A stretch of DNA of 64,000 bases from an archaeon BMS3Abin17 (GTDB lineage: Archaea; Nanobdellota; Nanobdellia; Pacearchaeales; GW2011-AR1), in contig BDTJ01000038.1 in NCBI GenBank assembly GCA_002897655.1, positions 1,957-65,956 of the forward strand, written 5' to 3'. Below the pieces are notes generated by a model that saw only the letters and a program-made list of their open reading frames with translations, was not told the origin of the DNA and did not search any database. The number at the start of each line of letters is the position of its first letter. Position 1 is the stretch's first letter. Positions 4,894 to 63,253 of this stretch are shown piece by piece. The position numbers and the translations under genes are program-made.

Positions 4894-4922
4894 ATATATT
4901 AAAGGAAAATTGTATTTATACT

Positions 4923-28962: not shown

Positions 28963-30174
28963 TTATTTATAATTCAAAGAATTTTCAATGATTTCTTTTG
29001 CCTTCTTAAGGATGTTATCTGTTATTGCCAGCTTTATCTCTCTCATTCTTCCCCCTCTTCCTTTTGAAATAACAGTCACATTAATAACGCCCAGCATATC
29101 AAATTCCTGAATAATATCCCCTACTCTTCTCTGAGTAAGTACTTCTAATTTGTTTTTTGAACACAATTCCTGATAATAGTTATAAACATCTCCTGTAAAA
29201 ATAGGTTGTTTTTTATTTTTTTGAGACAGCTGAATAATAGAATATAGCACTAATTGAAATTGCTTTGGCTCTGAGCTAATAACATCTAAAATCTTGTCTC
29301 TTTCTATCTTGTTGTTTGCTTCATCCAAATACTTCATGAGAATTTTCTTGCTATTATCTCTCTCTGCTAGTTCTCCCGCAATTCTCAATAGATCCAGTGC
29401 TCTTCTTGCATCCCCATGCTCTCTTGCAGCATAAGCAGCGCATTTAGCAATAACCCCTTCCTGAACAACCCCCTCTTTAAAAGCATCTTTTGCCCTTTTT
29501 GTCAAAATCTTCTGTAATTGCAAGGCGTTATATGGGTGAAATACTATCTCTTCCTCTGAAAGTGAACTTCTGACCCGGGGGTCTAGACCATCTAAAAAAG
29601 TCAAATCATTACTAATTCCCACAATACACATTTGTGTTTTTGAAAGCTCTGTATTAAGCCTTGTGAGATTATACAAAAAATCACTTGAAATTTTCTTCAT
29701 GGTCTGGTCAATCTCATCTAAAATCAAGACAATCATTTGTTTTTCTGCATCAATAATCTCAATAAATTTGTTATACACAGATTCTGTTGGCAAACCTGTT
29801 GCAGGAACCTTCCCCCCCATCTTCTTAATTAATTCTGCGAGAATCCGATATTCTGTATCTGAAACTTTCTTTAATTTACAGTTCAGGTATTCTATTCTTA
29901 ATTTAAACCCTGCGCCTTCTTTTGTTCTTTTAAAAAGCTCATCCCTAACAAACTGGATTGAAAGGGTTTTCCCTGTTCCTGTCTTTCCGTAAAGAAACAA
30001 ATTGCTGGTTCTCTCGCCTTTTAAGACAGGAGCAAGTATAGAAGCTATCTGTTTAATCTGTTCCTCTCTATGAGGGATGCTCTCTGGCTGATAGTTTGCC
30101 TGCAAAATTGATTTGTTTTTAAAAAGTCCTTCCCTATTTACAGAGTCAAAGATCTCATTAAGCTCTTTTTCCAT
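28963..30174 (-). CDS. cdc6: Orc1/Cdc6 replication initiator
   Basis: Walker A LYGKTGTGKT, AAA+ core and a C-terminal winged helix. Confidence 0.9.
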   Translation of the reverse strand: MEKELNEIFDSVNREGLFKNKSILQANYQPESIPHREEQIKQIASILAPVLKGERTSNLFLYGKTGTGKTLSIQFVRDELFKRTKEGAGFKLRIEYLNCKLKKVSDTEYRILAELIKKMGGKVPATGLPTESVYNKFIEIIDAEKQMIVLILDEIDQTMKKISSDFLYNLTRLNTELSKTQMCIVGISNDLTFLDGLDPRVRSSLSEEEIVFHPYNALQLQKILTKRAKDAFKEGVVQEGVIAKCAAYAAREHGDARRALDLLRIAGELAERDNSKKILMKYLDEANNKIERDKILDVISSEPKQFQLVLYSIIQLSQKNKKQPIFTGDVYNYYQELCSKNKLEVLTQRRVGDIIQEFDMLGVINVTVISKGRGGRMREIKLAITDNILKKAKEIIENSLNYK

Positions 30175-30382: not shown

Positions 30383-30496
30383 ATCAAAAAGTCCTTGTGT
30401 TTTACCGCACCTTAAAAGGTGCGGTTTGTTTGGACTTTAGGATGTCCAAGGATTCATCCACACACTAAAGTGTGTGGTTTTCTCCAGGAATCCCTG
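30383..30496. repeat. Inverted repeat arm 1 (~110 bp) containing two hairpins
   Basis: The reverse complement is about 97% identical to 31811-31919. Internal palindromes ACCGCACCTTAAAAGGTGCGGT and CCACACACTAAAGTGTGTGG. Confidence 0.8.
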
Positions 30497-31810: not shown

Positions 31811-31919
31811 GATTCTGGAGAAAACCACACACTTTAGTGTGTGGATGAATCCTTGGACATCCTAAAGTCCAAACAAACCGCACCTTAAAAGGTGCGGTAA
31901 AACACAAGGACTTTTTGAT
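31811..31919. repeat. Inverted repeat arm 2 (~110 bp)
   Basis: Reverse complement of 30383-30496. Confidence 0.8.
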
Positions 31920-39670: not shown

Positions 39671-39958
39671 TTAAACTTTATAGACTTCATCGTGGTGTTT
39701 GTATTTTTCAATTATAATTGTCTTGGTTTTTTCATTTATAGAATAAATTAGCACATAGTGTCCAATATGAACTCTCCAGAAATTTTGAAGCGGTTTTTTC
39801 AGGGGCTTAAAATGATAAGGGGTTTCTCTTATTTCCTTTATTTTTTTGGAGATATATACTGAACTTATTTTGTCTTTTTTAGCAAGTTTTTTTAGAACTT
39901 TCTCAACATCTTTTCTTATTTCAATATTATACATTTTAACAGGATTAATCCAACCCAA
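39671..39958 (-). CDS. RelE/ParE-family toxin
   Basis: FWRVHIGHYVLIYSINEKTKTIIIEKYKHH is a RelE-like C-terminal pattern. Confidence 0.55.
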   Translation of the reverse strand: MGWINPVKMYNIEIRKDVEKVLKKLAKKDKISSVYISKKIKEIRETPYHFKPLKKPLQNFWRVHIGHYVLIYSINEKTKTIIIEKYKHHDEVYKV

Positions 39959-40178
39959 AATGTTTATCCCAATCTTTAATCTTTACAGTTTCTTCTTTTT
40001 GAGCTTCTAATAATTCTTTAACAAATTCAGGCCTCAATTCAGGTTCTAAGAGCTCTTTTCCATAAGTGTTTAGAATAAGATTAATCGCGTCACTTTTATC
40101 ATTTAAATTTTCCTTAGCTTTCACTATGTTTAAAATTCTGTTTGCCTGATCATCAATATTCACTATTGCCTTTACCAT
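39945..40178 (-). CDS. Cognate antitoxin
   Basis: 77-aa ORF overlapping the toxin start. Confidence 0.45.
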   Translation of the reverse strand: MVKAIVNIDDQANRILNIVKAKENLNDKSDAINLILNTYGKELLEPELRPEFVKELLEAQKEETVKIKDWDKHFGLD

Positions 40179-40336
40179 TTTTATATATTAACACCACATT
40201 AATGCCATATTAATATAACTATATAAATCTTCCCAAAACTCCCGACAATCCTTCTTGTGCGAACTTAAAGATGTTATTGGGGGGTGGTTTGAGAAGGTCA
40301 GGAAAAAACTTTAAATGCCAATATATTTGCGAATAA

Positions 40337-42400
40337 ATGAAGGCTTTATTAAAAAAATATTTTGGATATGATTCTTTTAAACCTCTGCAAGAGGAGATTA
40401 TTAATAATGTTCTTAAAAAAGAAGATACTTTTGTTCTTATGCCAACAGGAGGTGGAAAATCTCTTTGCTACCAACTTCCCGCATTAAAATTTGAAGGAGT
40501 TACTATTGTAATTTCTCCCCTTATTTCTCTTATGAAAGATCAAGTAGATAATCTGAATGCAAATGGAATTAATGCAGAATACATTAATTCTTCCCTTTCT
40601 TTTGAAGAAATTGAAGATATCAAGGAAAAAATCCATAAAAAAGAAGTAAAGATTCTTTATGTTGCTCCTGAAAGACTGGCATTGGAAAGTTTTAAAATAT
40701 TTTTAGCAACGATTCAGATAAGTTTAATTGCTATAGATGAGGCACATTGCATCTCTGAATGGGGGCATGATTTTCGGCAGGAATACAGGAATTTGAGATT
40801 TTTAAAGACAATTTTTCCATATGTGCCAATAATTGCTTTGACTGCAACAGCTACATTAAAAGTAAGAGAAGATATCTTGAAACAGCTATCTTTAAAGAAC
40901 CCCCAAATTTCTGTTTCAAGTTTTAACAGGGAAAATCTCAACTTGATTGTGATGGAAAAAAAGAATACTTTTAATAAAATTTTAAGTTTAATTAAAAAAC
41001 ATAAAAATGAATCAGTGATTATTTATTGTTTTTCACGTAAGGATTCAGAGAAAATTGCTCAACGTTTAAGAGAAAATGGATTTAAAGCCCTTCCTTATCA
41101 TGCTGGACTGAATAATGAAACAAGAAAACAAAATCAGGATTTGTTTATTAAAGATAAAGTTGATATTATTGTAGCTACAATTGCATTTGGCATGGGAATT
41201 GATAAACCAGATGTTAGATTGATTATCCACCATACATTTTCAAAAACACTTGAGGGTTATTATCAAGAGATTGGAAGAGCAGGACGTGATGGCTTTTCAA
41301 GTGATTGTGTTTTATTCTATTCATGGGGGGATAAAAGGAAACATGAATTTTTTATTAAACAAATTATGGATGAATTTGCCCAAAAGAAGAGCATGGATCA
41401 ATTAAGGAAAATAATGGACTATTGCGAATATACTTCTTGCAGAAGAAAATATATCTTAAGATATTTTGGCGAAAATTTCCAGGAAGATAATTGTAAGGGT
41501 TGTGATATTTGTTTAAACTTGCAAGAAATAAAAGGAGAGGGGGATAAGAAATTATTCTTTGAAAAAGTAAAAGAAAATATATCTTATGATAAATCTTTAT
41601 TTGAAGAATTGCGTGTTTTGAGGAAGCAAATTGCTAATGAGAAGAATTTCCCCGCCTTTGTAATTTTTGGTGATGTTTCCTTAAGGGAAATGGCATCTTA
41701 CTTTCCAAAGAATAATGAAGAATTCTTAAGAATTAAAGGAGTTGGAGAACAGAAGTTAAATGATTATGGAGAATTATTTTTGGAAGCAATAAATAATTAT
41801 GTGAAGGAAAATGATATTGATGCTATGGGGATTCCTAGAAAGGAAAAGAAAAAGAGTAAAACAAGATTTTTGTCAAAAAACTATCAAAAAACAAAAGAGA
41901 TGATTTTAAAGAAAATCTCAATAGAAGAAATAGCAGGAATACATGGATTCAAAGAAAGAAGAATAATTTACCATATTGAAAAACTTCTAGAGGGTGGGGA
42001 AAACATTGATATCAATTATCTTATACCTTCTAAAGAGAGATTTGAGAGTATAAAATCTGCTTTTGAGGAATTTGGTACTAAACTGCTTGCTCCAATTTAT
42101 AATTATTTTAATGGAGAATTTTCTTATGATGAAATTAGATTAGTAAGAATGGCTATAAAGTTAAAAAATGAAGATGTGGAGAAAGATGATAAAGAAAATA
42201 ATTCAAAAATAGATTATCATCAAAGATTAGAAGAAATCAAAGAAGAATTTCCAAATGCTTATGAATCTTGGGATGAAGATGAAGATAATAAACTAAAAAG
42301 ATTGTTTTCTAAGAATGTTCCTATTCAAGCACTCACAAAAATCTTCAAAAGGCAACCAAGTGCAATTAGATCCAGATTAAGGAAATTTGGGGTTTTGTGA
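40337..42400 (+). CDS. recQ: RecQ-family ATP-dependent DNA helicase
   Basis: Walker A PTGGGKS, DEAH box AIDEAHCISEWGHDFR, helicase C, an RQC Zn-binding Cys cluster and a C-terminal HRDC-like region. Confidence 0.85.
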   Translation: MKALLKKYFGYDSFKPLQEEIINNVLKKEDTFVLMPTGGGKSLCYQLPALKFEGVTIVISPLISLMKDQVDNLNANGINAEYINSSLSFEEIEDIKEKIHKKEVKILYVAPERLALESFKIFLATIQISLIAIDEAHCISEWGHDFRQEYRNLRFLKTIFPYVPIIALTATATLKVREDILKQLSLKNPQISVSSFNRENLNLIVMEKKNTFNKILSLIKKHKNESVIIYCFSRKDSEKIAQRLRENGFKALPYHAGLNNETRKQNQDLFIKDKVDIIVATIAFGMGIDKPDVRLIIHHTFSKTLEGYYQEIGRAGRDGFSSDCVLFYSWGDKRKHEFFIKQIMDEFAQKKSMDQLRKIMDYCEYTSCRRKYILRYFGENFQEDNCKGCDICLNLQEIKGEGDKKLFFEKVKENISYDKSLFEELRVLRKQIANEKNFPAFVIFGDVSLREMASYFPKNNEEFLRIKGVGEQKLNDYGELFLEAINNYVKENDIDAMGIPRKEKKKSKTRFLSKNYQKTKEMILKKISIEEIAGIHGFKERRIIYHIEKLLEGGENIDINYLIPSKERFESIKSAFEEFGTKLLAPIYNYFNGEFSYDEIRLVRMAIKLKNEDVEKDDKENNSKIDYHQRLEEIKEEFPNAYESWDEDEDNKLKRLFSKNVPIQALTKIFKRQPSAIRSRLRKFGVL

Positions 42401-42461
42401 TGGATTAATCTGACTATTAAATTAAGATAAGTTTTTATAATTCTTTGAATATTTTTATATA

Positions 42462-43157
42462 ATGAAGATAAAAGACATTCCAAAAGATGGCAGACCAAGA
42501 GAAAGATTCCTAAAACATGGTCCTGAAACCCTAAGTGATGCAGAACTTTTTGCAATTATTCTTAGAACAGGGACAAGAGGAAAATTAAACAAAGAGAGGG
42601 AACTAATGCCCGGAGAAAACGTGGTTGATATGTCAAACAGATTAATCAAAGAATATGGTTTAGATAAATTATTTGATTGTTCTCTCAAAGAACTCCAGAA
42701 AATTAAAGGCATTGGACCTGCAAAAGCAATGCAGATTTTGTCCATGGCAGAATTAGGTAAAAGATATTCACAATCTAAAAATCCAATAACTAAAATAAAT
42801 GATGCCAAAGATGTTTTTAATTATTTTCATGAAAGACTTAAAGACAAAAAAGAAGAAAATTTCTATATTTTAATGTTAAATACTCAAAATAATATAATTG
42901 GAGAGCAATTAATAAGTAAAGGAATTCTCGATGCTTCAATAATTCACCCAAGAGAAATATTTAAGCCAGCAATTAAAAACAGTGCATCTAAGATAATTTT
43001 AGTGCATAATCATCCATCAGGAGACCCGAATCCCAGTGCAGAAGATGAAGAGATTGCAAAAAGGTTAATGAAAAATGGAGAAGAGCTAGGAATAAAGGTT
43101 TTGGACAATGTAATAATTGGAAATGAAAAGTTTTGGAGTTCGGTTGAGAAAGATTAA
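42462..43157 (+). CDS. radC: RadC-like JAB/MPN domain protein
   Basis: N-terminal HhH region and the JAMM motif HNHPSGDPNPSAED. Confidence 0.8.
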   Translation: MKIKDIPKDGRPRERFLKHGPETLSDAELFAIILRTGTRGKLNKERELMPGENVVDMSNRLIKEYGLDKLFDCSLKELQKIKGIGPAKAMQILSMAELGKRYSQSKNPITKINDAKDVFNYFHERLKDKKEENFYILMLNTQNNIIGEQLISKGILDASIIHPREIFKPAIKNSASKIILVHNHPSGDPNPSAEDEEIAKRLMKNGEELGIKVLDNVIIGNEKFWSSVEKD

Positions 43158-43176
43158 GTTTATCTTTTATCAGTCT

Positions 43177-43818
43177 TCAAAACATCAAATTAACTAAATT
43201 TGGGAATATGTATTTTTCCTTAGGGCAATTAATCTCAAAGTGTTCCTTAAGATATTCATATCCATTTGGATCTAAATCCTGACCATCTGCTGTAACAAAG
43301 TTAAATATTTTCTCTTTTATCTGCTGTAATTGCAATGCGCTGGCCAGAATTTTGCAATCTGCATGATTTGGAATTATGTCATGAATCTTACCAACTAAAT
43401 CTCCATTGATTTGATTTATCGGAATTACTTTTTCATCAACTTTTGTTTTTAAAAATTGTTCGATCTTTATTTCGGAAAGTCTTCTGTCAAGTTTAAGAGA
43501 ATTAGAAACCTCTTCTGAGTTTCCATATTTAAATCTTTCATATATCTGTTTAATAAAAGGAATATCTCTTTTAGATATTAAAGGGCTTTCTTCAAAAGAG
43601 TAGTTGGAATTCTGAAGCTTTCTGAGAACTTCTTTATGAATCCTCGCTCTTTTTTTAATTATCTCACTAAGTTCTCTTAAAACTGCCCAGCACAAAATAA
43701 ATTTTCCAGATTTATTTACAACAAAGAGATAACATTTTTTCACAATATTCCCGGAAGAATCATTATAATTTGAATAATTAAAGATTATATTAGTATCAAG
43801 AAAATTATCCTTTTTCAT
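43177..43818 (-). CDS. PIN-like domain protein
   Basis: N-terminal MKKDNFLDTNIIF (acidic LDTN start typical of PIN) plus later conserved acidic residues. Confidence 0.35.
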   Translation of the reverse strand: MKKDNFLDTNIIFNYSNYNDSSGNIVKKCYLFVVNKSGKFILCWAVLRELSEIIKKRARIHKEVLRKLQNSNYSFEESPLISKRDIPFIKQIYERFKYGNSEEVSNSLKLDRRLSEIKIEQFLKTKVDEKVIPINQINGDLVGKIHDIIPNHADCKILASALQLQQIKEKIFNFVTADGQDLDPNGYEYLKEHFEINCPKEKYIFPNLVNLMF

Positions 43819-44880
43819 TTAATCTTCCCCTGTCCAATTTTCCATTATCTTTCTGATTTCCTGAACTTCTTTAGATACTTCTAATGAATCTACATCAAAA
43901 TTTGCAAGATTAGTAATATAAATTGAATTTAAATCAGAAAGGGCCTCTTTAAGTGTTCTTTTTCTGTCCTCAAAGATATTTCCCAGATAAAAATTCATGA
44001 TAATTTCTTTTTCCATAACATTTGACCCGGTAGTTTTACTTTTATATAATTTATACAATGCTATCAGTTTCCAGAGAGAATCAAATGCAATAAAAATTTC
44101 TTTTCTATAATCCTGAAGTTTTAAGCCAATTAAATTCATTTTTCCCATTATTGAGATGGCTTTTTCTGTTAGGTCAAATATTTCCGGAAATTCAGGATTT
44201 ACAGGACAGGCAATAAAAAACTTATTCAGCAGATTTTCAATTTCTTGGTTTTTCCATTCAGATTTATTTAAAATATTAAAAATTTCATCAGAAAGAACAT
44301 ATAACTCTTCACCATATTTCTTGTGTTGCTCTTTTTGTATCTGAACAGAGCCTTTTTTTCTGTTTTCATCTGCAAATTCTTTAATTAAATTTTGGACTTT
44401 AACTTTATGTTTTAAATTATATTCTTCATGATATTCTGCAGTTGGATCCACCATTATCTGGGGCACCATGCCGTATAAATACCAAACAATCGGCAAATCA
44501 TTTAATCCGGATTCTTTATTATCAATAACATGCACTGCACATTTTGCAAGATGTGTTTTTGAAGGAATTCTTCCATGTTTTTTATATTCTTGTTTTATAA
44601 TGTAAAATAAAGTTCTAAATTTTTTCCTTTGTTCATCAGTTATTGGAAAATCAAAATAAGTATCCCCCATTACCTTTTGATATAATGTTAGCTTCTCTGT
44701 CGAGATGACCTCTTTAATTCTTCCCTCTTCACCCAGTTCTTTCACAAATTTCTCCACAGTCAGCCAGTTCGAATCAATGTCATTGCTTATTTGCTGGATA
44801 GTAAGAGGCTTTAACCATAAGATGTCAAGAATTCTCTCCTTTACCTCTTCACCCTTGCGCTTCATATGCACATCATGCAA
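43819..44880 (-). CDS. Hypothetical protein with an N-terminal wHTH
   Basis: 353 aa; abuts the PIN-like ORF in the same orientation. Confidence 0.35.
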   Translation of the reverse strand: MHDVHMKRKGEEVKERILDILWLKPLTIQQISNDIDSNWLTVEKFVKELGEEGRIKEVISTEKLTLYQKVMGDTYFDFPITDEQRKKFRTLFYIIKQEYKKHGRIPSKTHLAKCAVHVIDNKESGLNDLPIVWYLYGMVPQIMVDPTAEYHEEYNLKHKVKVQNLIKEFADENRKKGSVQIQKEQHKKYGEELYVLSDEIFNILNKSEWKNQEIENLLNKFFIACPVNPEFPEIFDLTEKAISIMGKMNLIGLKLQDYRKEIFIAFDSLWKLIALYKLYKSKTTGSNVMEKEIIMNFYLGNIFEDRKRTLKEALSDLNSIYITNLANFDVDSLEVSKEVQEIRKIMENWTGED

Positions 44881-44958
44881 AAACAGTTTTTAAATCTTTG
44901 GCTATCCGTTATATGATGTAATGGGCTGTTTTATCTTTTATAAGGTGGTGTTTTGGTT

Positions 44959-45318
44959 TCATTTGTCTTTTAAAGATATTCTAAAATCCCTTTCTTTTTT
45001 AATCAGGTCCAGGATTTCACTATCAAGTTCCTTCTTTCTGACTGCAGGAGCAAGTTTAAAATAATTTAAAGATGAAAATTTATCATATAAGCCTTTATTT
45101 TTAATGAGATTTACAAAGTTTTCTTTATCTTCAGGGTAAATAATCTTTTCATACTCCTTTACTGAACATTTTTTATTTGTTCCAAAAAGAATATCAGTAT
45201 TTTTTTCTTTAGCTAATTCAATAATTTTTATTTTAATTTCCTTCTCTTTCAGTTCTATTTCACTTTTTAATTTTTGAATTCTTTCAAATTCATCAACTAA
45301 ACCATCATCATTTGCCAT
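44959..45318 (-). CDS. Stand-alone homologue of the C-terminal domain of the Cas4-like nuclease at 60395-61576
   Basis: KKCSVKEYEKIIYPEDKENFVNLIKNKGLYDKF...ERDFRISLKDK aligns with KKASVREFDRIVMPEGEDKAKFLQLLKDKGVYEEC...EKDYRISLSRRK. Confidence 0.45.
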   Translation of the reverse strand: MANDDGLVDEFERIQKLKSEIELKEKEIKIKIIELAKEKNTDILFGTNKKCSVKEYEKIIYPEDKENFVNLIKNKGLYDKFSSLNYFKLAPAVRKKELDSEILDLIKKERDFRISLKDK

Positions 45319-45916
45319 TTTTTATATCCTGTATTTTAATCTCAAGTTCTTTTTCTTCACCAAAATCATATGTAAATCTAAAAGAATCCTTTTTATTCAG
45401 TCCTCCTGCTTCAAGAACAAAACCTATTTTATAATCATCAAGTCCGTCGAATCTTTCCTGCCATTCATCGCAAAGAGTTCCAAAAACATATTTTCCAATA
45501 TGGAATTCATATAAATGCCCAGGATCTAAATCAAATTCCTGTTCTATTCTTTCAAATAAATCTCTCAATGTCTTATTTCCATTGATTTCTATTTCTGAAT
45601 TGTCTTTCTTCCCAGAGATTTTAAATATAAAGGTTTTATCCATCCCAGCCCATTTAAAGTTCTTTAATTCTAATCTCTTCTTTTCATGTTCAATTAGGTT
45701 TGTAATCCTGTCAAAATCTGCTTCTTCAAACATGCTTATTTCTTTTGCTTTAGATAAACCTTCTTTGAGGTCTTTAATAAGAAGTTTTGTAAACCTCTCT
45801 TTAGTCAGTTTTTCCATTTCAGATAGTTTTTCCAGCATTGATTTTTTAGTTTGTTTTGATTGTTGAGCTGGCATTTTATTTTTTGGCTTCACTTGTGAAT
45901 TTTTTATTTTTATCAT
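45308..45916 (-). CDS. Hypothetical protein, partner of the 119-aa ORF
   Basis: 202 aa; overlaps the downstream ORF by 11 nt. Confidence 0.35.
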   Translation of the reverse strand: MIKIKNSQVKPKNKMPAQQSKQTKKSMLEKLSEMEKLTKERFTKLLIKDLKEGLSKAKEISMFEEADFDRITNLIEHEKKRLELKNFKWAGMDKTFIFKISGKKDNSEIEINGNKTLRDLFERIEQEFDLDPGHLYEFHIGKYVFGTLCDEWQERFDGLDDYKIGFVLEAGGLNKKDSFRFTYDFGEEKELEIKIQDIKNGK

Positions 45917-45934
45917 TTTTGATTTAATTGATAG

Positions 45935-46367
45935 TTATCTTTTATCAACCCAGGCTTTAGAATAACCTTTTTTCTCATAAATTTCTTTCATTCTTTCCGG
46001 TGCAAGTTCAGGATTTTCAATTTCATCGACTCTTTCGCTTCCTACTTTTGCCAACCATAGTTTAAATGGCTCTGCTTTCCTTGAAGGAATTGATTGGATT
46101 ATTCTGAATATTGTTTCCACAATCTGTTAGATAATATTTTCCATCAGAAGATTTAAATTTTAGTTGTCCGATTTTTGCGGACAACTCAGAACCTTCTTGT
46201 TTAAGTTTTACTTTCAAATCAGACCAGTATTTTCTAGGACGAGCACTTTCAGTCAAAATCGCAACAATATCTATAATAGAATAAAACCATGCTCCTTCAT
46301 TCAATGTTTTGGGGTACACTGAGCAGTGCTTATTATCTATCCAAATCCTTCTTATTTTCAAAAACAA
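45935..46367 (-). pseudogene. Bro-N/DinD-like (antirepressor-family) gene split by a frameshift
   Basis: Two overlapping ORFs (46062-46367 and 45935-46120). Together they give a Bro-N-like sequence: ...SIPSRKAEPFKLWLAKVGSERVDEI. Confidence 0.4.
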
Positions 46368-46880
46368 TTAATTTTTTACCTCGAAGAGGTCTTGCCCCTC
46401 TTTGGGGTTCTCGTGACCTTTGATTATCTTTTTCATCCATCTTCAACCTCTGAAACCTCGAATACTTTTCTTAATTCCTCAAGTTTTTTCTTATCCAAGT
46501 AAATAAAAATAAAATATTCTTTTTTTCCAATATCAATGCTCCTTATTCCGATTTCTAGATAATCCATTTTTTTAAATTTATCAGAAAATAAACCAAATAC
46601 ATTTACATCTTTTCTTAGGATAATTACAAAAAAACCCACTGATTTTTTATCAATTAAATCAAAAATTTCATCAAAGGTTTTATCTGCTTTTTCTCTTCTA
46701 AGCGATTTACTGCAATCTAACACATCAACTTTTATAATTTTGCTATTCTCTTTAGCCCATTTTAAGACTTTCTTTATTTTTTTAACATTCTTTTTTTTCA
46801 ATTCATAAAAAATATCACCCATCTTCAACCTCCAAACCAACCTTCTTCAAATTTAATATCTTTCTGATTCATTTTTCACA

Positions 46881-48308
46881 TTAATTTTTAACAATCCAGC
46901 TCCCCCCTTTATCAGGACCAATTCTTTTAATAATACTTTTCTGCTTTAATTGTTTAATATTTTTTTTAATTCCTTCAAGGCTTAATCTTAATTCATTTGC
47001 TAATTCTTCTCCAGTAATCTTAGGATTCCTGCTCATAAGATAGATTATTCTTAGTTGGGTCTTATTTGTTTCAGGGTACTTTTCAGAGTACTTTTCAGGG
47101 TACTTTTCAGAGGCATTTCCATCAAATTTAACTTTAAGAGGAAAACTAATTTTATAAAAAGTTGTTCCATCTTCTACAATAGGTTCAGTTTTATAATAAG
47201 ATTTCCAACCATTAAACATCTTATCAAAACCATATCCTGCATTTTCAGCTAACTTTAAAACTCTAAAGAGCTTTATTAAAATAGGATTTCTTGGAAAAGT
47301 TAGTTCTTGTTTTCTTAGCACTTCCACAGGAACAGGCAAACTCCCGGGATTCATAAATTCAATTCTATCTAAAAAAACTCGAATTCTCGGTTTCATAGTG
47401 CTAAAATAGTCTGAATGTGCCAATAAATTCACAATTGCCTCTCTAATTGCAAGAACTTGCGGTTGATTTTCATCCCTAAAAAATCCCTTGAGTTTAAAGG
47501 GGATATCTATTTTAGTGTGTAATCTTTCAGATAAACTAAAAAAATAATTAAAAAGATTTTTTTGCAAAGGCATTCTATATGTATATCTTTCTGGAGCATC
47601 GGCATAGGAAGTCCCATGAATTTCTAAATAATCTATCATAAAATTTGGGAAGATCTTGCTGATAGAATCCTCGGTTCCAAACATTAAAAGTCCTGCAATA
47701 CTCACCTCCTTATTAATCGTTACCCTTAATTTCTCAAAGATTTTTTCCTGAGATAGTTCATTATAAGGGTTTGAGGGATCTAGATTTCTTAGATAATTCC
47801 TAAATCTTTCTAATGTCTCATTATCTAAATCTTTTAATTTAAATTCAGTGGTTTCTTTATCTTTGGTTCCAAAAGCAGAATCTCTAAACATAGAATTAAC
47901 TTCCTCCTGTGTTGCTCTTTGATCTCCACTTCCAGAACGAATAAAAGTATTTTTTGGATTATTATAAAAAACAGGTTTGTTTTCAGAAAGAGGAATATAA
48001 AATGCCAAGATAGTTTTATCTTCAAATTTATACTTTTTTGATTTCACTTTAATTACAGAATTGAATTTAGATTTGTTCCTCAAAACAGTTGTAAAATCTT
48101 GTTCAATTTTTTCAGGGGTTTTAACTCCCCGAATGGAATACTTTTTTCCTTCTTTCCTGACTCCAAAAATTAACCATCCCCCATTAGTGTTTGCAAATGC
48201 AGAAATACTCTCCCAACTATTTTTTGGAATTTCTGATTTTGCTTCTTTAACTTCAAAATCTTCCCATTCAATGTCCTGTAGTTTTTTTATCAATTCACCT
48301 TTGTTCAT
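46881..48308 (-). CDS. AlbA_2 (Schlafen-like divergent AAA) plus HATPase_c_4 putative DNA-binding regulator
   Basis: SAFANTNGGWLIFGV is the AlbA_2 signature. C-terminal HTH. 13-bp tandem repeat at 47073-47112 encoding YPEKYSEKYPE. Confidence 0.55.
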   Translation of the reverse strand: MNKGELIKKLQDIEWEDFEVKEAKSEIPKNSWESISAFANTNGGWLIFGVRKEGKKYSIRGVKTPEKIEQDFTTVLRNKSKFNSVIKVKSKKYKFEDKTILAFYIPLSENKPVFYNNPKNTFIRSGSGDQRATQEEVNSMFRDSAFGTKDKETTEFKLKDLDNETLERFRNYLRNLDPSNPYNELSQEKIFEKLRVTINKEVSIAGLLMFGTEDSISKIFPNFMIDYLEIHGTSYADAPERYTYRMPLQKNLFNYFFSLSERLHTKIDIPFKLKGFFRDENQPQVLAIREAIVNLLAHSDYFSTMKPRIRVFLDRIEFMNPGSLPVPVEVLRKQELTFPRNPILIKLFRVLKLAENAGYGFDKMFNGWKSYYKTEPIVEDGTTFYKISFPLKVKFDGNASEKYPEKYSEKYPETNKTQLRIIYLMSRNPKITGEELANELRLSLEGIKKNIKQLKQKSIIKRIGPDKGGSWIVKN

Positions 48309-48570
48309 TTTACTCCAAAACCAACCTTCTTCTTAGTTCCATTAACAGGCACACCGTGAGTTCTGTTTATCCCCTGATTAATTAATTCTTTTTTTGCATC
48401 TTCTTTTTCCATTCATTTCTTCCTCAACTTTATTTCACCTTTTTTGGCAGATGCTTCAAGTTCATCACCTTCCTTAAGAGAAGAATCTTTGACTATTTTT
48501 TTTGGTAATACAATAACGTATTTGTGATAGATTTTATCACCTCTTTTTTTAGATAATTGTTTTTGGATTT

Positions 48571-49152
48571 TCATTTTTTATTCTCAAATTTTTTAATAAA
48601 CCACAACCTTATGAACATAGGGGGATGAAGAATCCACTTATTATATATCTTACCTATTGAAAAAGGAATATAGTCATTATAATCATAAACTTTTCTTAAA
48701 GTAGAACTTAACAATCCTTTTTCAGTTCTTTTTAGAGAATGAATATCTGCAAGTATCTCCTTTGGCCAACAAAATAAGGCTTCTAGTATTGCCCCCATTA
48801 AAATTAAAACTGGAAAAAATCCAATTAAAATAGCAAAAGTAATAATTGCTGGAACTTTAAGTAAAAAGAAAATTATTTCTTGATTAAAAGTTAATACAAA
48901 CCATAATGCAATGGATAAACTAATTAAAAAAGGCAGTATTGATAATATTTGGTTAAAGGGAGTTAAATGCCCCGCTTCATGGAGAAGTACAGAATTGTAT
49001 TCTTTTGGATTTAAGAAGGTCTTTATCCTCCCAGTCACAATAATAGTTTTACCATCTAATTTTGCCCACGCATTAACTTCAGCAGGCTTTGTTTTAATAA
49101 TGACTTTTTTTCCATCAAGAATTTTAGACTCCTTTAATTTCATAATTTTCAT
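48571..49152 (-). CDS. Membrane zinc metalloprotease-like protein (HExxH)
   Basis: Motif LLHEAGHL followed by three or four TM helices. Confidence 0.4.
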   Translation of the reverse strand: MKIMKLKESKILDGKKVIIKTKPAEVNAWAKLDGKTIIVTGRIKTFLNPKEYNSVLLHEAGHLTPFNQILSILPFLISLSIALWFVLTFNQEIIFFLLKVPAIITFAILIGFFPVLILMGAILEALFCWPKEILADIHSLKRTEKGLLSSTLRKVYDYNDYIPFSIGKIYNKWILHPPMFIRLWFIKKFENKK

Positions 49153-49373
49153 AATTCAATGAAGTATTTATGTTTTTCTGTACCGAAACTACTTAAGAGT
49201 AAAGACGTCTGTACCGAAAGATATATAATGTGTCTGTACCTACAAACGTTATGCCACTCTGCTACCACAAAGAAGCCTTTGTTTCAGGGGCTGTATCTGC
49301 CCTTTTCCTGTTTGCAGTGATAACTCTCTTTGAGGATGTTATTTGGGGGTGGTTTGGGAGGGTTAGGGAAAAG

Positions 49374-50828
49374 TTAATCTTTAAGGTCACTTTGAATTTC
49401 TTTTAATTGTTCTAAGGCAGATTCTAATTCTTCTGTTAATTCATCTGCAATAATATCAGGATCAGGAAGTTTGTCTAAATCATCTAAACTTTCATCTTTT
49501 AACCAGAAAATATCTAGATTAGTCTTATCTCTCTTTAGTATCTCTTCGTAACTAAAACATTTAAATCGTTCAGACTCTTTTCTTTTATGTCTATTGTTAG
49601 GATTATAGCATTTTACAAAATCATCTAAATCTTCTTCTTTTAAGGTATTTTCTTTTAATGTAAAATGTTTATTTGTTCTTAAGTCATAAATCCATATTTT
49701 AGAAGTTTGGGATTGTTTTGAAGCTTCTCTTTTATCAAAAAATAAGACATTCGCTTTAACACCCTGAGCATAAAATATTCCTGTTGGTAATCTCAATATT
49801 GTGTGTAAATCACAAGTTTCCATTAATTTCTTCCTTATTATTTCTCCTGCTCCACCTTCAAATAGAACATTATCTGGAAGAACGATTGCTGCCCTCCCAT
49901 TTATCTTTAATATGCTTTTTACGTGTTGTAAAAAGTTTAATTGTTTATTACTTGTTTCTGTCCAAAAGTCATCTCTTACAACTGTTAAGGTCTGTTTAGA
50001 TGTTTCTCCTTCTTCTGTTACAATTGTCTCAGAAGATTTTTTTCCAAAAGGAGGATTTGTCAGAACTATATCATAAACTGCCCCTGGATTTTTCTTCAAG
50101 GAATCCTCAAGGCTTATTGGGCTTTGTTCTCCATTGATCCCATGTAGATATAAATTCATTACACAAAGTCTTGCAACCATTGGGACAATATCATTTCCAC
50201 TAAATGTCTTGTGTTTTAATTTTATATTTTGGTCTCTGTCTAATTCATAATTTTTAACAATATGATTATATGCAGAAAGTAAAAATCCTCCTGTTCCAGA
50301 AGCAGGATCATGAATTTTTATTCCTGGTTCTGGTTTTATAACTTTAACAATTGAGTTAATTAAGGGTCTTGGTGTGAAATATTGCCCTGCTCCGCCCTTA
50401 ACATCTGCCGCATTTTTTTCTAAAAGCCCTTCATAAGCATCACCTTTAACATCTGCATCTAAGTTCAACCAATTTTCTTTGTTTATTAAATCAACAATTA
50501 ATTTTCTTAATTTCGCAGGATCTTGTATTCTATTTTGAGATTTTCTGAATATAACCCCTATAATTCCAGATTCTTTTCCCAATTCATTTAATAATTTAAT
50601 ATAATGTCTTTCTAGTTCTGGACCTTCTTTGTCTAAAAGAGATTGCCAATTATATTTCTTAGGAATATCGCTTTTTTTACTGTAAGGAGGCTTTGTTCTC
50701 TCATCATCCATTTTCAAAAACAGCAGATATGTCAGTTGTTCAACGTAATCCCCATAAGAAAGACCGTCATCTCTAAGTACATTACAATAATTCCATAATT
50801 TACTTACTAATTGTTGTGATGTTGTCAT
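49374..50828 (-). CDS. hsdM: Type I restriction-modification methyltransferase subunit
   Basis: HsdM N-terminal region, an AdoMet pocket and the motif NPPFG (LTNPPFGKKS). Confidence 0.9.
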   Translation of the reverse strand: MTTSQQLVSKLWNYCNVLRDDGLSYGDYVEQLTYLLFLKMDDERTKPPYSKKSDIPKKYNWQSLLDKEGPELERHYIKLLNELGKESGIIGVIFRKSQNRIQDPAKLRKLIVDLINKENWLNLDADVKGDAYEGLLEKNAADVKGGAGQYFTPRPLINSIVKVIKPEPGIKIHDPASGTGGFLLSAYNHIVKNYELDRDQNIKLKHKTFSGNDIVPMVARLCVMNLYLHGINGEQSPISLEDSLKKNPGAVYDIVLTNPPFGKKSSETIVTEEGETSKQTLTVVRDDFWTETSNKQLNFLQHVKSILKINGRAAIVLPDNVLFEGGAGEIIRKKLMETCDLHTILRLPTGIFYAQGVKANVLFFDKREASKQSQTSKIWIYDLRTNKHFTLKENTLKEEDLDDFVKCYNPNNRHKRKESERFKCFSYEEILKRDKTNLDIFWLKDESLDDLDKLPDPDIIADELTEELESALEQLKEIQSDLKD

Positions 50829-59227: not shown

Positions 59228-59356
59228 TCACTCCTCCCCAACATCCCCTCTCTTACTCAAAGATATCCTGTGATCTTTTTCAATGTTTGCCCTATCCTTT
59301 TCCGGCATTGCATCAAGCATTCTTTTTCTGTTCTTGGGTGCCTGCAATCCAGTCAT
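59228..59356 (-). pseudogene. 42-aa ORF that duplicates the Cas4-like C-terminal tail
   Basis: My own translation: MTGLQAPKNRKRMLDAMPEKDRANIEKDHRISLSKRGDVGEE, compared with the Cas4-like end ...KDKVNIEKDYRISLSRRKDLEEE. ATGA overlap with the Fic stop. Confidence 0.4.
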
Positions 59357-60394: not shown

Positions 60395-61576
60395 TCACTC
60401 CTCCTCCAAATCCTTCCTTCTACTCAATGATATCCTGTAATCTTTTTCAATGTTTACTTTATCCTTGATTTCTTGCTCAATTTCATCCTTGAGGACCTTG
60501 CTGTTAAGCTTTGGATAGCAGAGCATAGAGCATTCTTCATACACCCCTTTATCTTTTAATAACTGCAGGAACTTTGCCTTATCTTCTCCTTCAGGCATGA
60601 CAATCCTGTCAAACTCCCTGACAGAGGCTTTCTTATTGCTTCCATACGCCACATCTATCTCAAACTGCTTTGCATATCTTATCAGGTTATCCTTAAATTC
60701 TTCTTCTGCTGTTTTTAATTCTGAAAGCTTTGTCTTTATCTCAGAATACTTATCAACCAACTTAACACCTTCATCTTCCTTGAACTGTTCAACAACTTCA
60801 ATCTTTTCCAATTCTGCCTGATGCTTGAATGAGGGGCATTCTCCCCTGAACCCGCAATAATCACATAAAGCAGTAACATTTGTAGGAAACTCTGTCGCAG
60901 ATTCAATCTCTCTTATCCTCTCAATAACTTCATCCTGCAGTTTTTCCACCTGTTTATCTGTTCTTTCAGAGACAGCATCTTTATTAAAAGCCAGCATATG
61001 CCAGATTAACTTTACTGACTTTGCATCTTTGAATTTATCCTTAACCCAGATAGAATACATTGCCAGCTGCCTGTCTTCATCTGCTTCATTCTGGTCTTTC
61101 ATTCTTGAATTTGTCTTGTAATCACAAACATAATAATTTCCCTTGCTGTCACAACCCAGCTTATCTATCCTCACATGCCACTGATTCCCGTCTTTCAGGG
61201 TCATCCTGTCCTGAGTCTCTAATCCCAGTATTGTCATATCCTCAAAAGGCTTCATCCTGTCATAATAATCTGTCAGGAACTTTTCACCCATCTTCCTGTA
61301 ATTCTCAGCATCAAGGCCTTTCTTAACAATTAAAATATCATAAGAATAATTCTTCTTCCACAAATCCCTGTAGAACTTAACAAGGCTCTCCTTTGCAACC
61401 CTTTGCCTGAATTTCTTTCTTTTATACAGGTCTTCCAGAGCCTGATGCACCATGTCCCCCATAAATGCCTCAATAGTAGTGGGAGTTTCTGGCTTCTTCT
61501 TATCAATATAACGCAGTTTATACTGATATGGGCAATTTTCAAAAGTCGTAACTCTCGAATGCGAGTATGTTGCCAT
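60395..61576 (-). CDS. Stand-alone Cas4-like PD-(D/E)xK nuclease (DUF83-like) with a C-terminal extension
   Basis: N-terminal Cys (FENCPYQYKLRY), a D...VCDYKT motif, QLAMY and a C-terminal CDYCGFRGECP cluster. No cas genes or CRISPR array nearby. Confidence 0.6.
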   Translation of the reverse strand: MATYSHSRVTTFENCPYQYKLRYIDKKKPETPTTIEAFMGDMVHQALEDLYKRKKFRQRVAKESLVKFYRDLWKKNYSYDILIVKKGLDAENYRKMGEKFLTDYYDRMKPFEDMTILGLETQDRMTLKDGNQWHVRIDKLGCDSKGNYYVCDYKTNSRMKDQNEADEDRQLAMYSIWVKDKFKDAKSVKLIWHMLAFNKDAVSERTDKQVEKLQDEVIERIREIESATEFPTNVTALCDYCGFRGECPSFKHQAELEKIEVVEQFKEDEGVKLVDKYSEIKTKLSELKTAEEEFKDNLIRYAKQFEIDVAYGSNKKASVREFDRIVMPEGEDKAKFLQLLKDKGVYEECSMLCYPKLNSKVLKDEIEQEIKDKVNIEKDYRISLSRRKDLEEE

Positions 61577-61609
61577 AAAATTAGATATATTAGGGGGTTT
61601 TAAGGTTTT
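61577..61609. promoter_or_regulatory. Shared promoter/leader module, copy 1
   Basis: AAAATTAGATATATTA... directly 5' of the Cas4-like ATG (minus strand). Confidence 0.5.
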
Positions 61610-62350: not shown

Positions 62351-62545
62351 TTATTTCTCTTTTTTTCTGCTTGTAGATTCTATTTTCAATTGCAGGGCAT
62401 TAAACAAATGCACAATTTGGTCCTTTAATTTTTGCGGGACATTAATTCCATAGATAATTTTTTTATTTTTAATTAATGCAACAGAGTAATCTTTTTCAAA
62501 AATCTCGCTTCCAGATTTATCAATCCGAAATAAAGTAATTGCCAT
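62351..62545 (-). CDS. Small hypothetical protein
   Basis: 64 aa, preceded by promoter module copy 2. Confidence 0.3.
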   Translation of the reverse strand: MAITLFRIDKSGSEIFEKDYSVALIKNKKIIYGINVPQKLKDQIVHLFNALQLKIESTSRKKEK

Positions 62546-62585
62546 AAAATTAGATATATTAAATGGTTTTAAAGAATTCGGTGTT
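62546..62585. promoter_or_regulatory. Shared promoter/leader module, copy 2
   Basis: 35 nt identical to copy 3 and 22 nt identical to copy 1. Confidence 0.5.
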
Positions 62586-62969: not shown

Positions 62970-63253
62970 TTTCTATCACTATTCCAAGCACTTATGACTT
63001 TTAAATCTTTTGAGAGATTAATCTCAATTATTGAAACTAATGAATATTTCCTGCTCATCCTAAACCATAGCTTAAATCTGTTTATTTCCTTTCCCCGCTC
63101 AATTTTTTCTAACTTATTAATCTGAGATAAAAAACTTCTGACAATACTTTCATTTATTGGCCTTTCCCTTGTTCTCTTATAAAAATGAGGGTCAAAAATA
63201 ATGTTATCCTGATTTAATCTTTCAAGAAACTTTTTAACCTCTTTTAATTCCAT
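62945..63253 (-). CDS. DUF4258-like (RelE/ParE-superfamily) toxin
   Basis: DPHFYKRTRERPINESIV matches the H..R..ER.I signature. Confidence 0.5.
   Translation of the reverse strand: MELKEVKKFLERLNQDNIIFDPHFYKRTRERPINESIVRSFLSQINKLEKIERGKEINRFKLWFRMSRKYSLVSIIEINLSKDLKVISAWNSDRKWQDKLKQ

What the first reader, a model, noticed from the sequence alone, without database searches (positions are those of the whole stretch)
40270..49378. G-rich 40-bp direct repeats bound a 9-kb block (recQ to metalloprotease)
GATGTTATTGGGGGGTGGTTTGAGAAGGTCAGGAAAAAA lies at 40270-40312. GATGTTATTTGGGGGTGGTTTGGGAGGGTTAGGGAAAAG lies at 49335-49378. They are about 85% identical, in the same orientation, and conspicuously G-rich for this genome. 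They flank recQ, radC, the PIN/wHTH pair, the Cas4-C-like pair, the Bro-N pseudogene, AlbA_2 and the protease. The second copy ends exactly at the hsdM stop codon. They could be att-like boundaries of an integrated element or a repeated regulatory/structural (G-quadruplex-capable) motif.
Basis: seen in the sequence. Interest (0 to 1): 0.55.

Follow-up and report, generated by a model that had tools for sequence, protein, structure and literature searches.

The report
Small membrane-protein gene and its orphan fragment
The two G-rich repeats are coding sequence: one is the end of an intact, unannotated 51-codon gene for a small membrane protein of an undescribed DPANN-archaeal family, and the other is a stranded fragment of a second copy of that gene, so they are not shown to be attachment sites or G-quadruplex signals.

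Summary
The repeat is real: 36/43 nt identical, direct, two copies only, and far above chance once composition is weighted (51 bits against at most 35 in shuffles). It is coding-derived. Copy 2 (49330-49372) is codons 27-42 of an unannotated 51-codon gene (49251-49406). A family HMM built without any window sequence matches that gene full-length (E=1e-22). The family has 59 members of 40-56 aa, all from DPANN/Pacearchaeota-type metagenome contigs, with no Pfam or NCBIfam model. Copy 1 (40265-40311) matches only the C-terminal third of the same HMM, is the second-best hit in the window, and is 27/29 nt identical to a homologous gene from another metagenome. It is an orphan gene fragment wedged between the DUF2683/ParE promoter and the recQ promoter. 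In 11 of 13 independent contexts the small gene sits divergent to an orthologous MazE/AbrB-like gene, behind a promoter bracketed by operator-like boxes. This suggests a toxin-antitoxin-like module (inferred). G4 potential is not conserved. No recombinase, empty site or compositional difference supports an integrated element. The geometry (fragment, recQ-radC ... MazE, intact gene) is nonetheless a circular permutation of the canonical module, and the segment shows unexplained G enrichment at synonymous sites. An att-like role is therefore not excluded.

The parts
49251..49406 (+). Intact, unannotated 51-codon gene for a small membrane protein (MPLCYHKEAFVSGAVSALFLFAVITLFEDVIWGWFGRVREKLIFKVTLNFF*). 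Its last 33 nt overlap the convergent hsdM.
   Evidence: 13 homologues with E<=1e-3 among 1.84e9 representatives, best 1.8e-6. A family HMM without window sequence gives 76.9 bits, E=1.3e-22, HMM positions 1-42 of 44. A profile search finds 59 members of 40-56 aa. AlphaFold predicts two helices (residues 4-26 and 28-50) at pLDDT 83. No gene is called here in the public records.
49330..49372 (+). Repeat copy 2: codons 27-41 (LFEDVIWGWFGRVREK) of the small gene, at the start of the second helix.
   Evidence: L080's homologous gene carries nearly the same DNA, 43/48 nt.
40265..40314 (+). Repeat copy 1: orphan 3' fragment of a homologous small gene (..ELKDVIGGWFEKVRKKL*). It has no start codon, no TM-coding part and no promoter. 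Its stop codon lies inside the recQ TATA box.
   Evidence: Second-best hit of the external family HMM in the six-frame window: 15.4 bits, i-E 0.002, HMM positions 29-42 only. 27/29 nt identical to the L080 small gene. 37/48 nt identical to copy 2 and 36/48 to L080 when in register. No family similarity upstream.
49153..49250 (.). Divergent promoter region between the M48/MazE operon and the small gene. It has three CTGTACC boxes (49178-49184, 49209-49215, 49234-49240) bracketing a TATA box (49220-49230).
   Evidence: 3 of the window's 5 CTGTACC/GGTACAG occurrences lie here. Any 7-mer present three times in 98 nt occurs in 138 of 20000 shuffles. The same geometry is seen with lineage-specific box sequences in L072, L078, L080, L081, L082, L085 and L086.
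48413..48574 (-). MazE/AbrB-like 53-aa gene, the conserved divergent partner of the small gene and the presumed regulator.
   Evidence: PF04014 in the precomputed gene table. PHROG 'antitoxin' hit. Orthologues at 50-72% aa next to the small gene in 11 of 13 contexts.
48571..49152 (-). M48-like peptidase with TM segments, the first gene of the operon that contains the MazE-like gene.
   Evidence: Peptidase_M48, E=1e-5. L080 has a GNAT gene at this position instead.
40309..40336 (+). recQ promoter (CTTTAAAT TATA box) and short leader. This is the right-hand joint of the copy 1 fragment.
   Evidence: Homologous TATA-to-ATG segment upstream of recQ in L060, L068 and L070.
40337..43157 (+). recQ (40337-42400) and radC (42462-43157), co-oriented genes directly downstream of the copy 1 fragment.
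   Evidence: Pfam hits. A small gene followed by RadC is the arrangement in L072-L075.
39671..40178 (-). DUF2683/ParE toxin-antitoxin pair. Its promoter region forms the left-hand joint of the copy 1 fragment.
   Evidence: Pfam hits. The sequence left of 40265 is unrelated to the family.
49374..50828 (-). hsdM of a type I restriction-modification operon, convergent with the small gene and overlapping it by 33 nt.
   Evidence: Pfam N6_Mtase/HsdM_N; overlap computed. Convergent neighbours, one of them overlapping, also occur in L080, L081, L084, L085 and L086.

Best explanation
The repeat consists of two homologous pieces of a protein-coding gene, not a non-coding signal. Copy 2 is the part encoding LFEDVIWGWFGRVREK in an intact 51-codon gene (49251-49406). 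This gene belongs to an undescribed family of roughly 45-aa single-pass membrane proteins from DPANN (Pacearchaeota-type) archaea. The protein has an N-terminal CYHKEAF motif, a hydrophobic helix, a kink at Phe27/Glu28, and then an amphipathic basic helix. The gene is expressed from a promoter whose TATA box is bracketed by three operator-like boxes. It is paired, divergently, with a conserved MazE/AbrB-like gene. I infer that the AbrB-like protein represses the small gene through the boxes, and that the small protein is a membrane-acting toxin or effector, which would make the pair a toxin-antitoxin-like or abortive-infection-like module typical of accessory islands. Copy 1 is what remains of a second family member, about 16 codons plus a stop. 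It lost its promoter, start codon and TM-coding part at a joint with the DUF2683/ParE module, and it abuts the recQ promoter on its other side. It is a gene remnant that marks rearrangement joints in a fast-changing defence island. Most of the G-richness comes from Gly, Trp, Val, Glu and Arg codons, plus an unexplained preference for G-ending synonymous codons in this segment. Shown: the homology, gene integrity, family membership, conserved neighbourhood and promoter architecture. Inferred: repression by the MazE-like protein, toxicity of the small protein, and the order of the rearrangements.
For: The repeat is real. The copy 2 ORF has significant homologues, all 41-56 aa. An HMM built from those alone ranks the copy 2 ORF first (E=1e-22, full length) and copy 1 second (i-E 0.002, C-terminal positions only) in the six-frame window. 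There are 59 family members and no Pfam or NCBIfam model. L080's gene carries the same G-rich DNA, and copy 1 matches it at 27/29 nt. The MazE-like partner is orthologous and divergent in 11 of 13 contexts. The box-TATA-box geometry is conserved while the box sequence co-varies by lineage. The two-helix model has pLDDT 83. No second MazE-like gene lies near copy 1, which fits inactivation of an unguarded toxin gene. No recombinase is found in the block.
Against: The copy 1 match to the family HMM covers only 14 residues, so its E-value is modest. The function of the small protein and of the boxes is untested, and PADLOC has no model for either. The small gene is not called by any public annotation of this locus, and no expression data exist. 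The excess of G-ending synonymous codons and the mosaic conservation (window vs L080 third positions: 7/7, 0/8, 12/13) point to a nucleotide-level constraint or recombination that simple gene decay does not explain. None of the 13 other contexts has two copies or a fragment, so 'two modules side by side' has no precedent.
Confidence: 0.75

Rival explanations
1. Att-like sites: the 9.07-kb block is an integrated, circularly permuted module. A circle carrying MazE-operon <-> small gene -> recQ -> radC recombined, within the G-rich 3' segment of its small gene, with a similar sequence lying between the DUF2683 promoter and the hsdM stop. That would leave the 3' segment at the left end and the gene body plus 3' segment at the right end.
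For: The repeats are direct and lie at both ends of the block. Joining the 5' part of copy 2 to the 3' part of copy 1 rebuilds the family's canonical order, MazE <-> small gene -> co-oriented cargo, as seen with RadC in L072. 'Small gene upstream of recQ' occurs in none of 12 recQ loci or 13 small-gene loci, so that joint is new. The repeat segment shows excess synonymous conservation and G-ending codons, as expected of a DNA-level site. In relatives, recQ-led blocks are flanked by duplicated gene 3' ends (radC).
Against: No integrase, transposase or other recombinase is found in or next to the block. GC content equals that of the flanks. The repeats are only 84% identical with a 12-nt maximal identical core. 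No empty site or circular junction was found, and contigs ending near copy 2 match the window exactly. The target would itself have to be a pre-existing fragment. The family is absent from IMG/VR viral contigs.
Confidence: 0.15
2. A nucleic-acid-level functional motif (a G-quadruplex, or a regulatory DNA or RNA element) that merely overlaps coding sequence and is kept at both sites for that function, for example as part of the recQ promoter.
For: Copy 2 is the only canonical G4 motif in the 64-kb window. G-ending synonymous codons are enriched in the segment: 57% against 17% in the genes' 5' parts and 29% in the background. Copy 1 is still G-rich in a 31% GC genome and sits directly upstream of the recQ TATA box.
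Against: Copy 1 and all eight homologous genes lack a canonical G4 motif. Neither strand folds better than shuffles, with z from +0.4 to +1.3. RNAalifold finds no conserved structure. There is no Rfam hit. recQ relatives have no such element upstream. The two copies have opposite positional relationships to their neighbouring genes.
Confidence: 0.06
3. Relics of a radC 3' end: the G-rich repeat would descend from the ...VIDSVIVGG..WW... C-terminal coding end of radC, which lies directly upstream of recQ in the relatives L068 and L070.
For: radC precedes recQ in L068 and L070, and its stop lies at the same place relative to the recQ TATA box. Gapped DNA alignments give p=0.001 for the L068 relic versus copy 1 and p of about 0.01 for the L060 radC 3' end versus both copies, against shuffled queries. 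Genuine radC 3' relics exist in L068 and L070.
Against: An HMM of the relatives' RadC C-termini finds only the intact radC in the window and neither copy. The alignment needs several codon gaps, and 10 of 14 DNA comparisons are not significant. The small-gene family explains both copies without gaps and with much better statistics.
Confidence: 0.03
4. Chance similarity of two G-rich stretches.
For: With flat scoring the pair is within the upper range of shuffles.
Against: Composition-weighted score is 51 bits against a maximum of 35 in 60 shuffles. Both copies are hit by an external protein HMM. The same DNA occurs in L080.
Confidence: 0.01

Closest known systems
Gene 3'-end duplications left by site-specific integration (tRNA or protein-gene 3' ends; for example Tn554-family insertion at att554 in the radC 3' region, which leaves 3' radC remnants; bioRxiv 10.1101/2020.09.30.320143)
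   Same: A short direct repeat consisting of the 3' part of a gene, one copy attached to an intact gene and the other orphaned, bounding a block of accessory genes.
   Different: No recombinase is present. The orphan lies upstream (left) of the block and the intact gene lies at the far end, the reverse of the classical topology. The repeats are only 84% identical. No empty site is known.
Small hydrophobic toxins of type I/type V toxin-antitoxin systems (Hok, TisB, Fst, GhoT) - from established knowledge
   Same: A protein of about 45-50 aa with a single hydrophobic helix, tightly controlled expression, located in accessory or defence islands, and poorly annotated.
   Different: The partner here is a divergently transcribed MazE/AbrB-fold protein, not an antisense RNA or an RNase. 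Toxicity is untested. The family is archaeal (DPANN) and shows no sequence similarity to these toxins.
MazE/AbrB (SpoVT-AbrB, PF04014) antitoxins and transition-state regulators
   Same: The 53-aa partner matches PF04014. Repeated operator boxes bracket the promoter, as expected for a DNA-binding repressor or antitoxin.
   Different: There is no MazF or PIN toxin directly downstream as in canonical type II operons. The conserved partner is the divergent small membrane-protein gene.
Pseudogene or gene-remnant scars in prokaryotic defence islands
   Same: Copy 1 is a truncated, promoter-less gene piece between two unrelated modules.
   Different: It retains its G-rich composition and an open frame despite AT pressure, and it lies in a geometry that would rebuild a full module by recombination with the intact copy.

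Membership tests
CYHKEAF small membrane-protein family (undescribed; defined here by 59 members) | Full-length match to the family profile, length of about 40-56 aa, and invariant C4, K7, F10, G13, F27 (E8 and E28 in at least 90%) | tested here: met
   Copy 2 ORF: 76.9 bits, E=1.3e-22, HMM positions 1-42 of 44. Invariant columns are listed. Copy 1 matches only HMM positions 29-42 (i-E 0.002), so it is a fragment, not a member gene.
CYHKEAF small membrane-protein family | Divergent MazE/AbrB-like neighbour and a box-TATA-box promoter | tested here: met
   For copy 2, the MazE-like gene is at 48413-48574 (with an M48 gene interposed) and three CTGTACC boxes are present. Copy 1 has neither.
Integrated mobile element bounded by att sites | Direct repeats at both ends | tested here: met
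   36/43 nt, same orientation.
Integrated mobile element bounded by att sites | Integrase, recombinase or transposase encoded in or next to the element | tested here: not met
   Pfam, PADLOC, PHROGs and PDB sequence searches of all block proteins found none. The only trace is a faint Phage_int_SAM_5 hit inside the AlbA_2 protein.
Integrated mobile element bounded by att sites | Empty site or excised circle in relatives or in the population | tested here: inconclusive
   All contigs carrying the flanking genes show the same arrangement or simply end. The recQ relatives share no flanks.
Integrated mobile element bounded by att sites | Classical topology for insertion into a gene's 3' end (intact gene proximal, orphan 3' copy distal) | tested here: not met
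   The orphan fragment is at the left end and the intact + strand gene is at the right end.
G-quadruplex motif | Four G3+ tracts with loops of 1-7 nt, conserved in all copies and homologues | tested here: not met
   Present only in copy 2. Absent from copy 1 and from 8 homologous genes.
Structured non-coding RNA or tRNA-derived att | Rfam or tRNA match, or a fold more stable than shuffles, or covariation | tested here: not met
   No tRNA. No Rfam hit. z-scores from +0.4 to +1.3. RNAalifold gives -2.1 kcal/mol with 1 compensatory pair.
Dispersed intergenic repeat (REP/MITE-like) | Many copies per genome in intergenic positions | tested here: inconclusive
   Only 2 copies in 64 kb. The 50 core matches in GTDB representatives are all chance matches with no extension. 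The rest of the source genome could not be scanned.
radC 3'-end relic | Match to the RadC C-terminal profile | tested here: not met
   An HMM from the relatives' RadC C-termini hits only 43083-43139, the intact radC.
Canonical type II MazEF toxin-antitoxin system | A MazF/PemK toxin gene co-transcribed with mazE | tested here: not met
   No MazF-type protein is found in the operon by Pfam. The genes downstream of mazE differ between loci.
Type I toxin-antitoxin system | An antisense RNA antitoxin overlapping the small toxin gene | not testable with these tools
   This needs transcriptome data.

The most novel reading that the evidence does not exclude
The G-rich 3' segment of the small gene may be a DNA-level recombination site through which integrase-less 'small gene -> cargo' modules are inserted, excised as circles or shuffled in DPANN accessory islands, possibly using a host recombinase. 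On this reading the window preserves one such event: a 9-kb circularly permuted module carrying recQ-radC. The radC 3'-end duplications that flank recQ blocks in related archaea would be the same process acting on a similar G-rich gene end.
Probability: 0.12. Interest if true: 0.7.

Novelty: new variant of a known kind. Interest (0 to 1): 0.36.

Why it matters
For the original claim, the result is deflationary. A striking G-rich "att-like" repeat turns out to be a missed small gene plus a remnant of a second copy. This is a reminder that unannotated small ORFs can look like non-coding signals. The positive outcome is modest but real. It is an undescribed small membrane-protein family with about 59 detected members, restricted to DPANN/Pacearchaeota-type archaea. 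The family is consistently paired with a MazE/AbrB-like gene behind a promoter whose operator-like boxes co-vary with lineage, and it is embedded in defence and accessory islands next to RadC, reverse transcriptase, methyltransferase, ParB-TIR and restriction-modification genes. DPANN genomes are rich in uncharacterised genes, and a candidate toxin-antitoxin or abortive-infection module with a clear regulator-operator-effector layout can be tested directly. If the less likely recombination-site reading were true, it would reveal how integrase-less gene modules move in these reduced genomes.

Tried and rejected
1. tRNA- or Rfam-based att or ncRNA: no tRNA and no Rfam family in the window.
2. 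Stable RNA or DNA structure: z-scores were positive for both strands and both copies, and RNAalifold on 8 family genes found no conserved structure.
3. Bacterial-type promoter and terminator scans were uninformative. The organism is an archaeon.
4. Dispersed repeat: the 17-base core scan of GTDB representatives gave 50 hits, none extending beyond the core. The source lineage is apparently not among the representatives.
5. Conserved recQ upstream element: absent from 12 recQ loci at 57-77% aa identity.
6. radC 3'-relic origin of the repeat: I pursued this seriously because radC precedes recQ in L068 and L070. It was rejected after the RadC C-terminal HMM failed, the composition-controlled DNA tests were mostly non-significant, and the small-gene family explained both copies.
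7. Remains of the small gene's 5' part or a second MazE gene near copy 1: none found. The ACCACA..GCC match 77 nt upstream is not distinguishable from chance.
8. Viral or MGE carriage: no RadC or small-gene relatives in IMG/VR.
9. Known defence systems: PADLOC has no model for the small protein or the MazE-like protein. Only the AlbA_2 protein hits pAgo-associated models.
10. Literature: no description of the family was found.

Full report
**1. Observation**

The two quoted sequences are present. Each quoted string is 39 nt long, so they span 40270-40308 and 49335-49373. With five more bases on the left, the ungapped direct repeat is 40265-40307 versus 49330-49372, with 36 of 43 positions identical.

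No further copy exists in the 64-kb window. This holds for pattern search, blastn-short and a two-sequence nhmmer profile.

The two sites are the two most G-rich 40-mers on a strand that is only 13% G. Flat scoring puts the pair at the upper edge of dinucleotide shuffles. Composition-weighted scoring gives 51.4 bits against a maximum of 26.8-35.0 in 60 shuffles. The repeat is therefore real. Its last base does abut the hsdM stop codon.

**2. Setting**

The window is archaeal. It encodes PolD DP2 (with an intein) and DP1, Orc1/Cdc6 and DUF2683, at about 31% GC. Identical genes occur only in one marine-metagenome population: DRR093003/5, MAG GCA_011050875.1 and ERZ1742237.

The region from about 31 kb to 61 kb is an accessory or defence island. 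It holds toxin-antitoxin pairs, recQ-radC, PIN, an AlbA_2 protein, a type I restriction-modification operon, GmrSD, Fic and PD-(D/E)XK genes.

**3. Leads that failed**

- There is no tRNA and no Rfam family.
- Neither strand of either copy folds better than shuffled sequence.
- A 17-base core scan of the GTDB species representatives gave 50 single hits, about the chance expectation, and none extended beyond the core.
- Twelve recQ loci from relatives (57-77% aa identity) have no such element upstream of recQ.
- In two of those loci radC sits directly upstream of recQ, and its G-rich 3' end (..VIDSVIVGGEEWW..) resembles the repeat. I therefore tested a 'radC relic' origin. A profile of the relatives' RadC C-termini found only the intact radC in the window. 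Composition-controlled DNA alignments were significant for only 3 of 14 comparisons. I rejected this origin for the window's repeat.

**4. What the repeat is**

Both copies are open in the frame that reads DVIGGWFEKVRKKL* (copy 1) and DVIWGWFGRVREKL (copy 2). Copy 2 lies at the end of a 67-codon open stretch.

An exhaustive HMMER search of that stretch against 1.84 billion representative proteins returned 13 hits with E<=1e-3, the best at 1.8e-6 with 44-60% identity. All are 41-56 aa long (one 96), and all align from the Met at 49251 to the end of the repeat. They share the pattern M.LCYHKEAF.LG..SALF.FA.I.LFEDVI..W..KIRK.

An HMM built only from these external sequences ranks the copy 2 ORF first in the six-frame window: 49251-49376, 76.9 bits, E=1.3e-22, HMM positions 1-42 of 44. 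It ranks copy 1 second: 40270-40311, 15.4 bits, i-E 0.002, HMM positions 29-42 only.

A profile search of 5.8 billion clusters found 59 members of 40-56 aa. The only names attached were 'hypothetical protein' from Candidatus Pacearchaeota or 'archaeon'. There is no Pfam, NCBIfam, PADLOC or PHROG model.

The homologous gene in L080, from an unrelated JGI metagenome, contains TTTGAGGATGTTATTTGGGGGTGGTTTGAGAGGGTTAAGGAGAAG. This is 43/48 nt identical to copy 2 and 36/48 to copy 1, and copy 1 matches it at 27/29 nt by blastn.

Copy 2 is therefore codons 27-42 of an intact gene of 51 codons (49251-49406). No public record of this locus annotates that gene. Copy 1 is an orphan fragment of a homologous gene. 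Nothing upstream of 40265 resembles the family. On its right the fragment runs straight into the recQ TATA box, a promoter segment shared with the recQ relatives.

AlphaFold on the family alignment predicts two helices, residues 4-26 (hydrophobic) and 28-50, at pLDDT 83. The repeat encodes the start of the second helix.

**5. The module the gene belongs to**

Thirteen independent contexts were retrieved. In 11 of them a 52-61-aa MazE/AbrB-like gene lies divergent to the small gene, sometimes preceded by one other gene. That gene is orthologous to the window's 48413-48574 at 50-72% aa identity.

What follows the small gene varies:

- co-oriented RadC plus a methyltransferase (L072-75);
- a reverse transcriptase plus a nuclease, inserted between rpsL and nusA (L076);
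- a methyltransferase (L077);
- a 405-aa protein (L078/79);
- ParB_N plus TIR (L082/83);
- convergent conflict-system genes (L080, L081, L084, L085, L086). In L085 the convergent gene overlaps the small gene's 3' end, as hsdM does in the window by 33 nt.

The divergent promoter has a conserved geometry of box, TATA, box, about 10 nt, then ATG, usually with a third box upstream. The box sequence changes with lineage: TCTGTAC(C) in the window, L080 and L082; GGTACC in L072 and L085; AGATACC in L078; AGAGACC in L081; GGCGCC in L086. In the window the boxes are at 49178-84, 49209-15 and 49234-40, and the TATA box is at 49220-30.

This layout suggests, by inference, that the AbrB-fold protein represses a potentially harmful small membrane protein. 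That would make the pair a toxin-antitoxin-like or abortive-infection-like module.

**6. How the two copies relate**

Copy 2 keeps the family's canonical upstream context (M48-MazE operon, boxes, start codon). Copy 1 keeps the canonical downstream context (gene end followed within 25 nt by co-oriented cargo, recQ-radC). L072 has exactly the arrangement small gene then RadC.

There are two possible histories.

- **(T) Two modules.** Two modules once lay in the island, and the left one lost its regulator, promoter and 5' two-thirds when the DUF2683/ParE segment was joined to it. Losing the repressor would favour inactivation of a toxic gene, and no second MazE-like gene remains.
- **(I) One permuted module.** A single circular module, MazE <-> small gene -> recQ -> radC ..., recombined through the 3' segment of its small gene with a similar chromosomal sequence. 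This would give the present circular permutation.

I favour (T) because no recombinase is detectable and GC content is uniform. In addition, the copies are only 84% identical with a 12-nt maximal core, copy 1 is no closer to copy 2 than to L080's gene, and contigs ending near copy 2 show no alternative junction. History (I) is not excluded.

**7. Residual oddity**

The G-richness is not only a matter of amino-acid content. Among purine-ending synonymous codons, the repeat segment uses G-ending codons 42:32. Codons 1-26 of the same eleven genes use them 11:53, and the window's long genes use them 29% of the time.

At four- and six-fold sites, third-position identity is 0.81 in the repeat segment and 0.50 in the TM segment. 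Between the window and L080, third positions at identical residues match 7/7 in the N-terminal segment, 0/8 in the TM segment and 12/13 in the repeat segment.

The sequences are phylogenetically related, so these are not formal tests. The pattern suggests either recombination between family members at the conserved gene ends or a nucleotide-level constraint. It is not explained by a conserved RNA structure or by G4 potential, which only copy 2 has.

**8. Comparison with known systems**

- The repeat resembles the gene-3'-end duplications left by site-specific integration, for example Tn554-family insertion in the radC 3' region. It fails that family's tests for a recombinase and for topology.
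- The small protein resembles type I/V membrane toxins in size and hydrophobicity. It has a protein partner of the MazE/AbrB fold, which is divergently transcribed.
- The module is not a canonical MazEF system, because no MazF is present.

It is best described as a new family and a new variant of toxin-antitoxin-like modules, with the function inferred only.

**9. Verdict**

The feature is an intact, overlooked small gene plus an orphan fragment of a homologue, and the fragment marks a rearrangement joint in a defence island. The interest lies mainly in the undescribed small-protein/MazE-like module and in the unexplained nucleotide-level conservation of its G-rich segment.

Noticed in passing
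L070:13670-13735 and 13798-13875; L068:2047-2103; L060:15959-16006, 17118-17207, 18381-18449, 19302-19406: Relatives carry orphan radC fragments. In L070 an intact radC (7054-7749) is followed by recQ and about 4 kb of genes, then by two radC 3' relics that abut the stop of a convergent type III res gene. Relic A differs from the resident radC end by 8 synonymous and 6 non-synonymous codons and shares a 20-nt identical core. In L068 a radC 3' relic follows recQ directly. L060 has four radC 5' fragments about 1.2 kb apart, each ahead of different genes. This looks like repeated recombination or insertion at radC ends, comparable to Tn554 at att554 in staphylococcal radC.
   Followed up: partly
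window 30383-30487 and 31815-31919: A 105-nt inverted repeat, 98% complementary, with arms 1327 nt apart, lies immediately upstream of orc1/cdc6 (28963-30174, - strand). Each arm contains the palindromes ACCGCACCTTAAAAGGTGCGGT and CCACACACTAAAGTGTGTGG. It may be replication-origin architecture or the terminal inverted repeats of an inserted element.
   Followed up: partly
window 2380-2620, 4657-4897 (and weaker 3150-3390): A direct repeat of about 200 nt at about 95% identity, containing a C8-9 run, lies in intergenic or upstream positions of - strand genes. There is no Rfam match.
   Followed up: partly
window 61570-61605, 62539-62584, 63250-63292; also 59228-59299 vs 60395-60466: Three copies of a roughly 40-nt promoter-like sequence (TTGCCATAAAATTAGATATATTA..GGTTTTAA) and a 72-nt C-rich direct repeat lie near the right end of the window.
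   Followed up: no
L076:6001-8744 (GCA_043810755.1): In another archaeon the small gene, a 571-aa reverse transcriptase (RVT_1) and an Exo_endo_phos nuclease form a 2.8-kb insertion between the ribosomal S12 gene and nusA/rpoA. This is a highly conserved core region and an unusual place for an accessory module.
   Followed up: partly
window 49153-49250 and homologous regions in L072, L078, L080-L082, L085, L086: The operator-like boxes keep their positions around the TATA box but change sequence between lineages (TCTGTACC, GGTACC, AGATACC, AGAGACC, GGCGCC), alongside divergence of the MazE-like protein. This looks like regulator-operator co-evolution.
   Followed up: partly
window 42779-43263 (ends of L006 and L001): The ERZ1742237 assembly breaks on both sides of the radC/PIN convergent junction, leaving about 480 nt unassembled. 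This may reflect strain heterogeneity at that joint inside the block.
   Followed up: no
window 21402-26234 and 11345-12703: PolD DP2 carries an intein with a LAGLIDADG domain. A free-standing 452-aa LAGLIDADG ORF lies 9 kb away. It contains the third-best, probably chance, hit of the small-protein HMM (12355-12393, KSVYHKNYFELG).
   Followed up: no
window 47069-47116: A 12-nt tandem repeat (TTTCAGGGTACT, four units) lies inside the AlbA_2 gene and encodes a repeated EKYPEKYSEKYPE stretch. The AlbA_2 protein also matches PADLOC pAgo-associated models.
   Followed up: no
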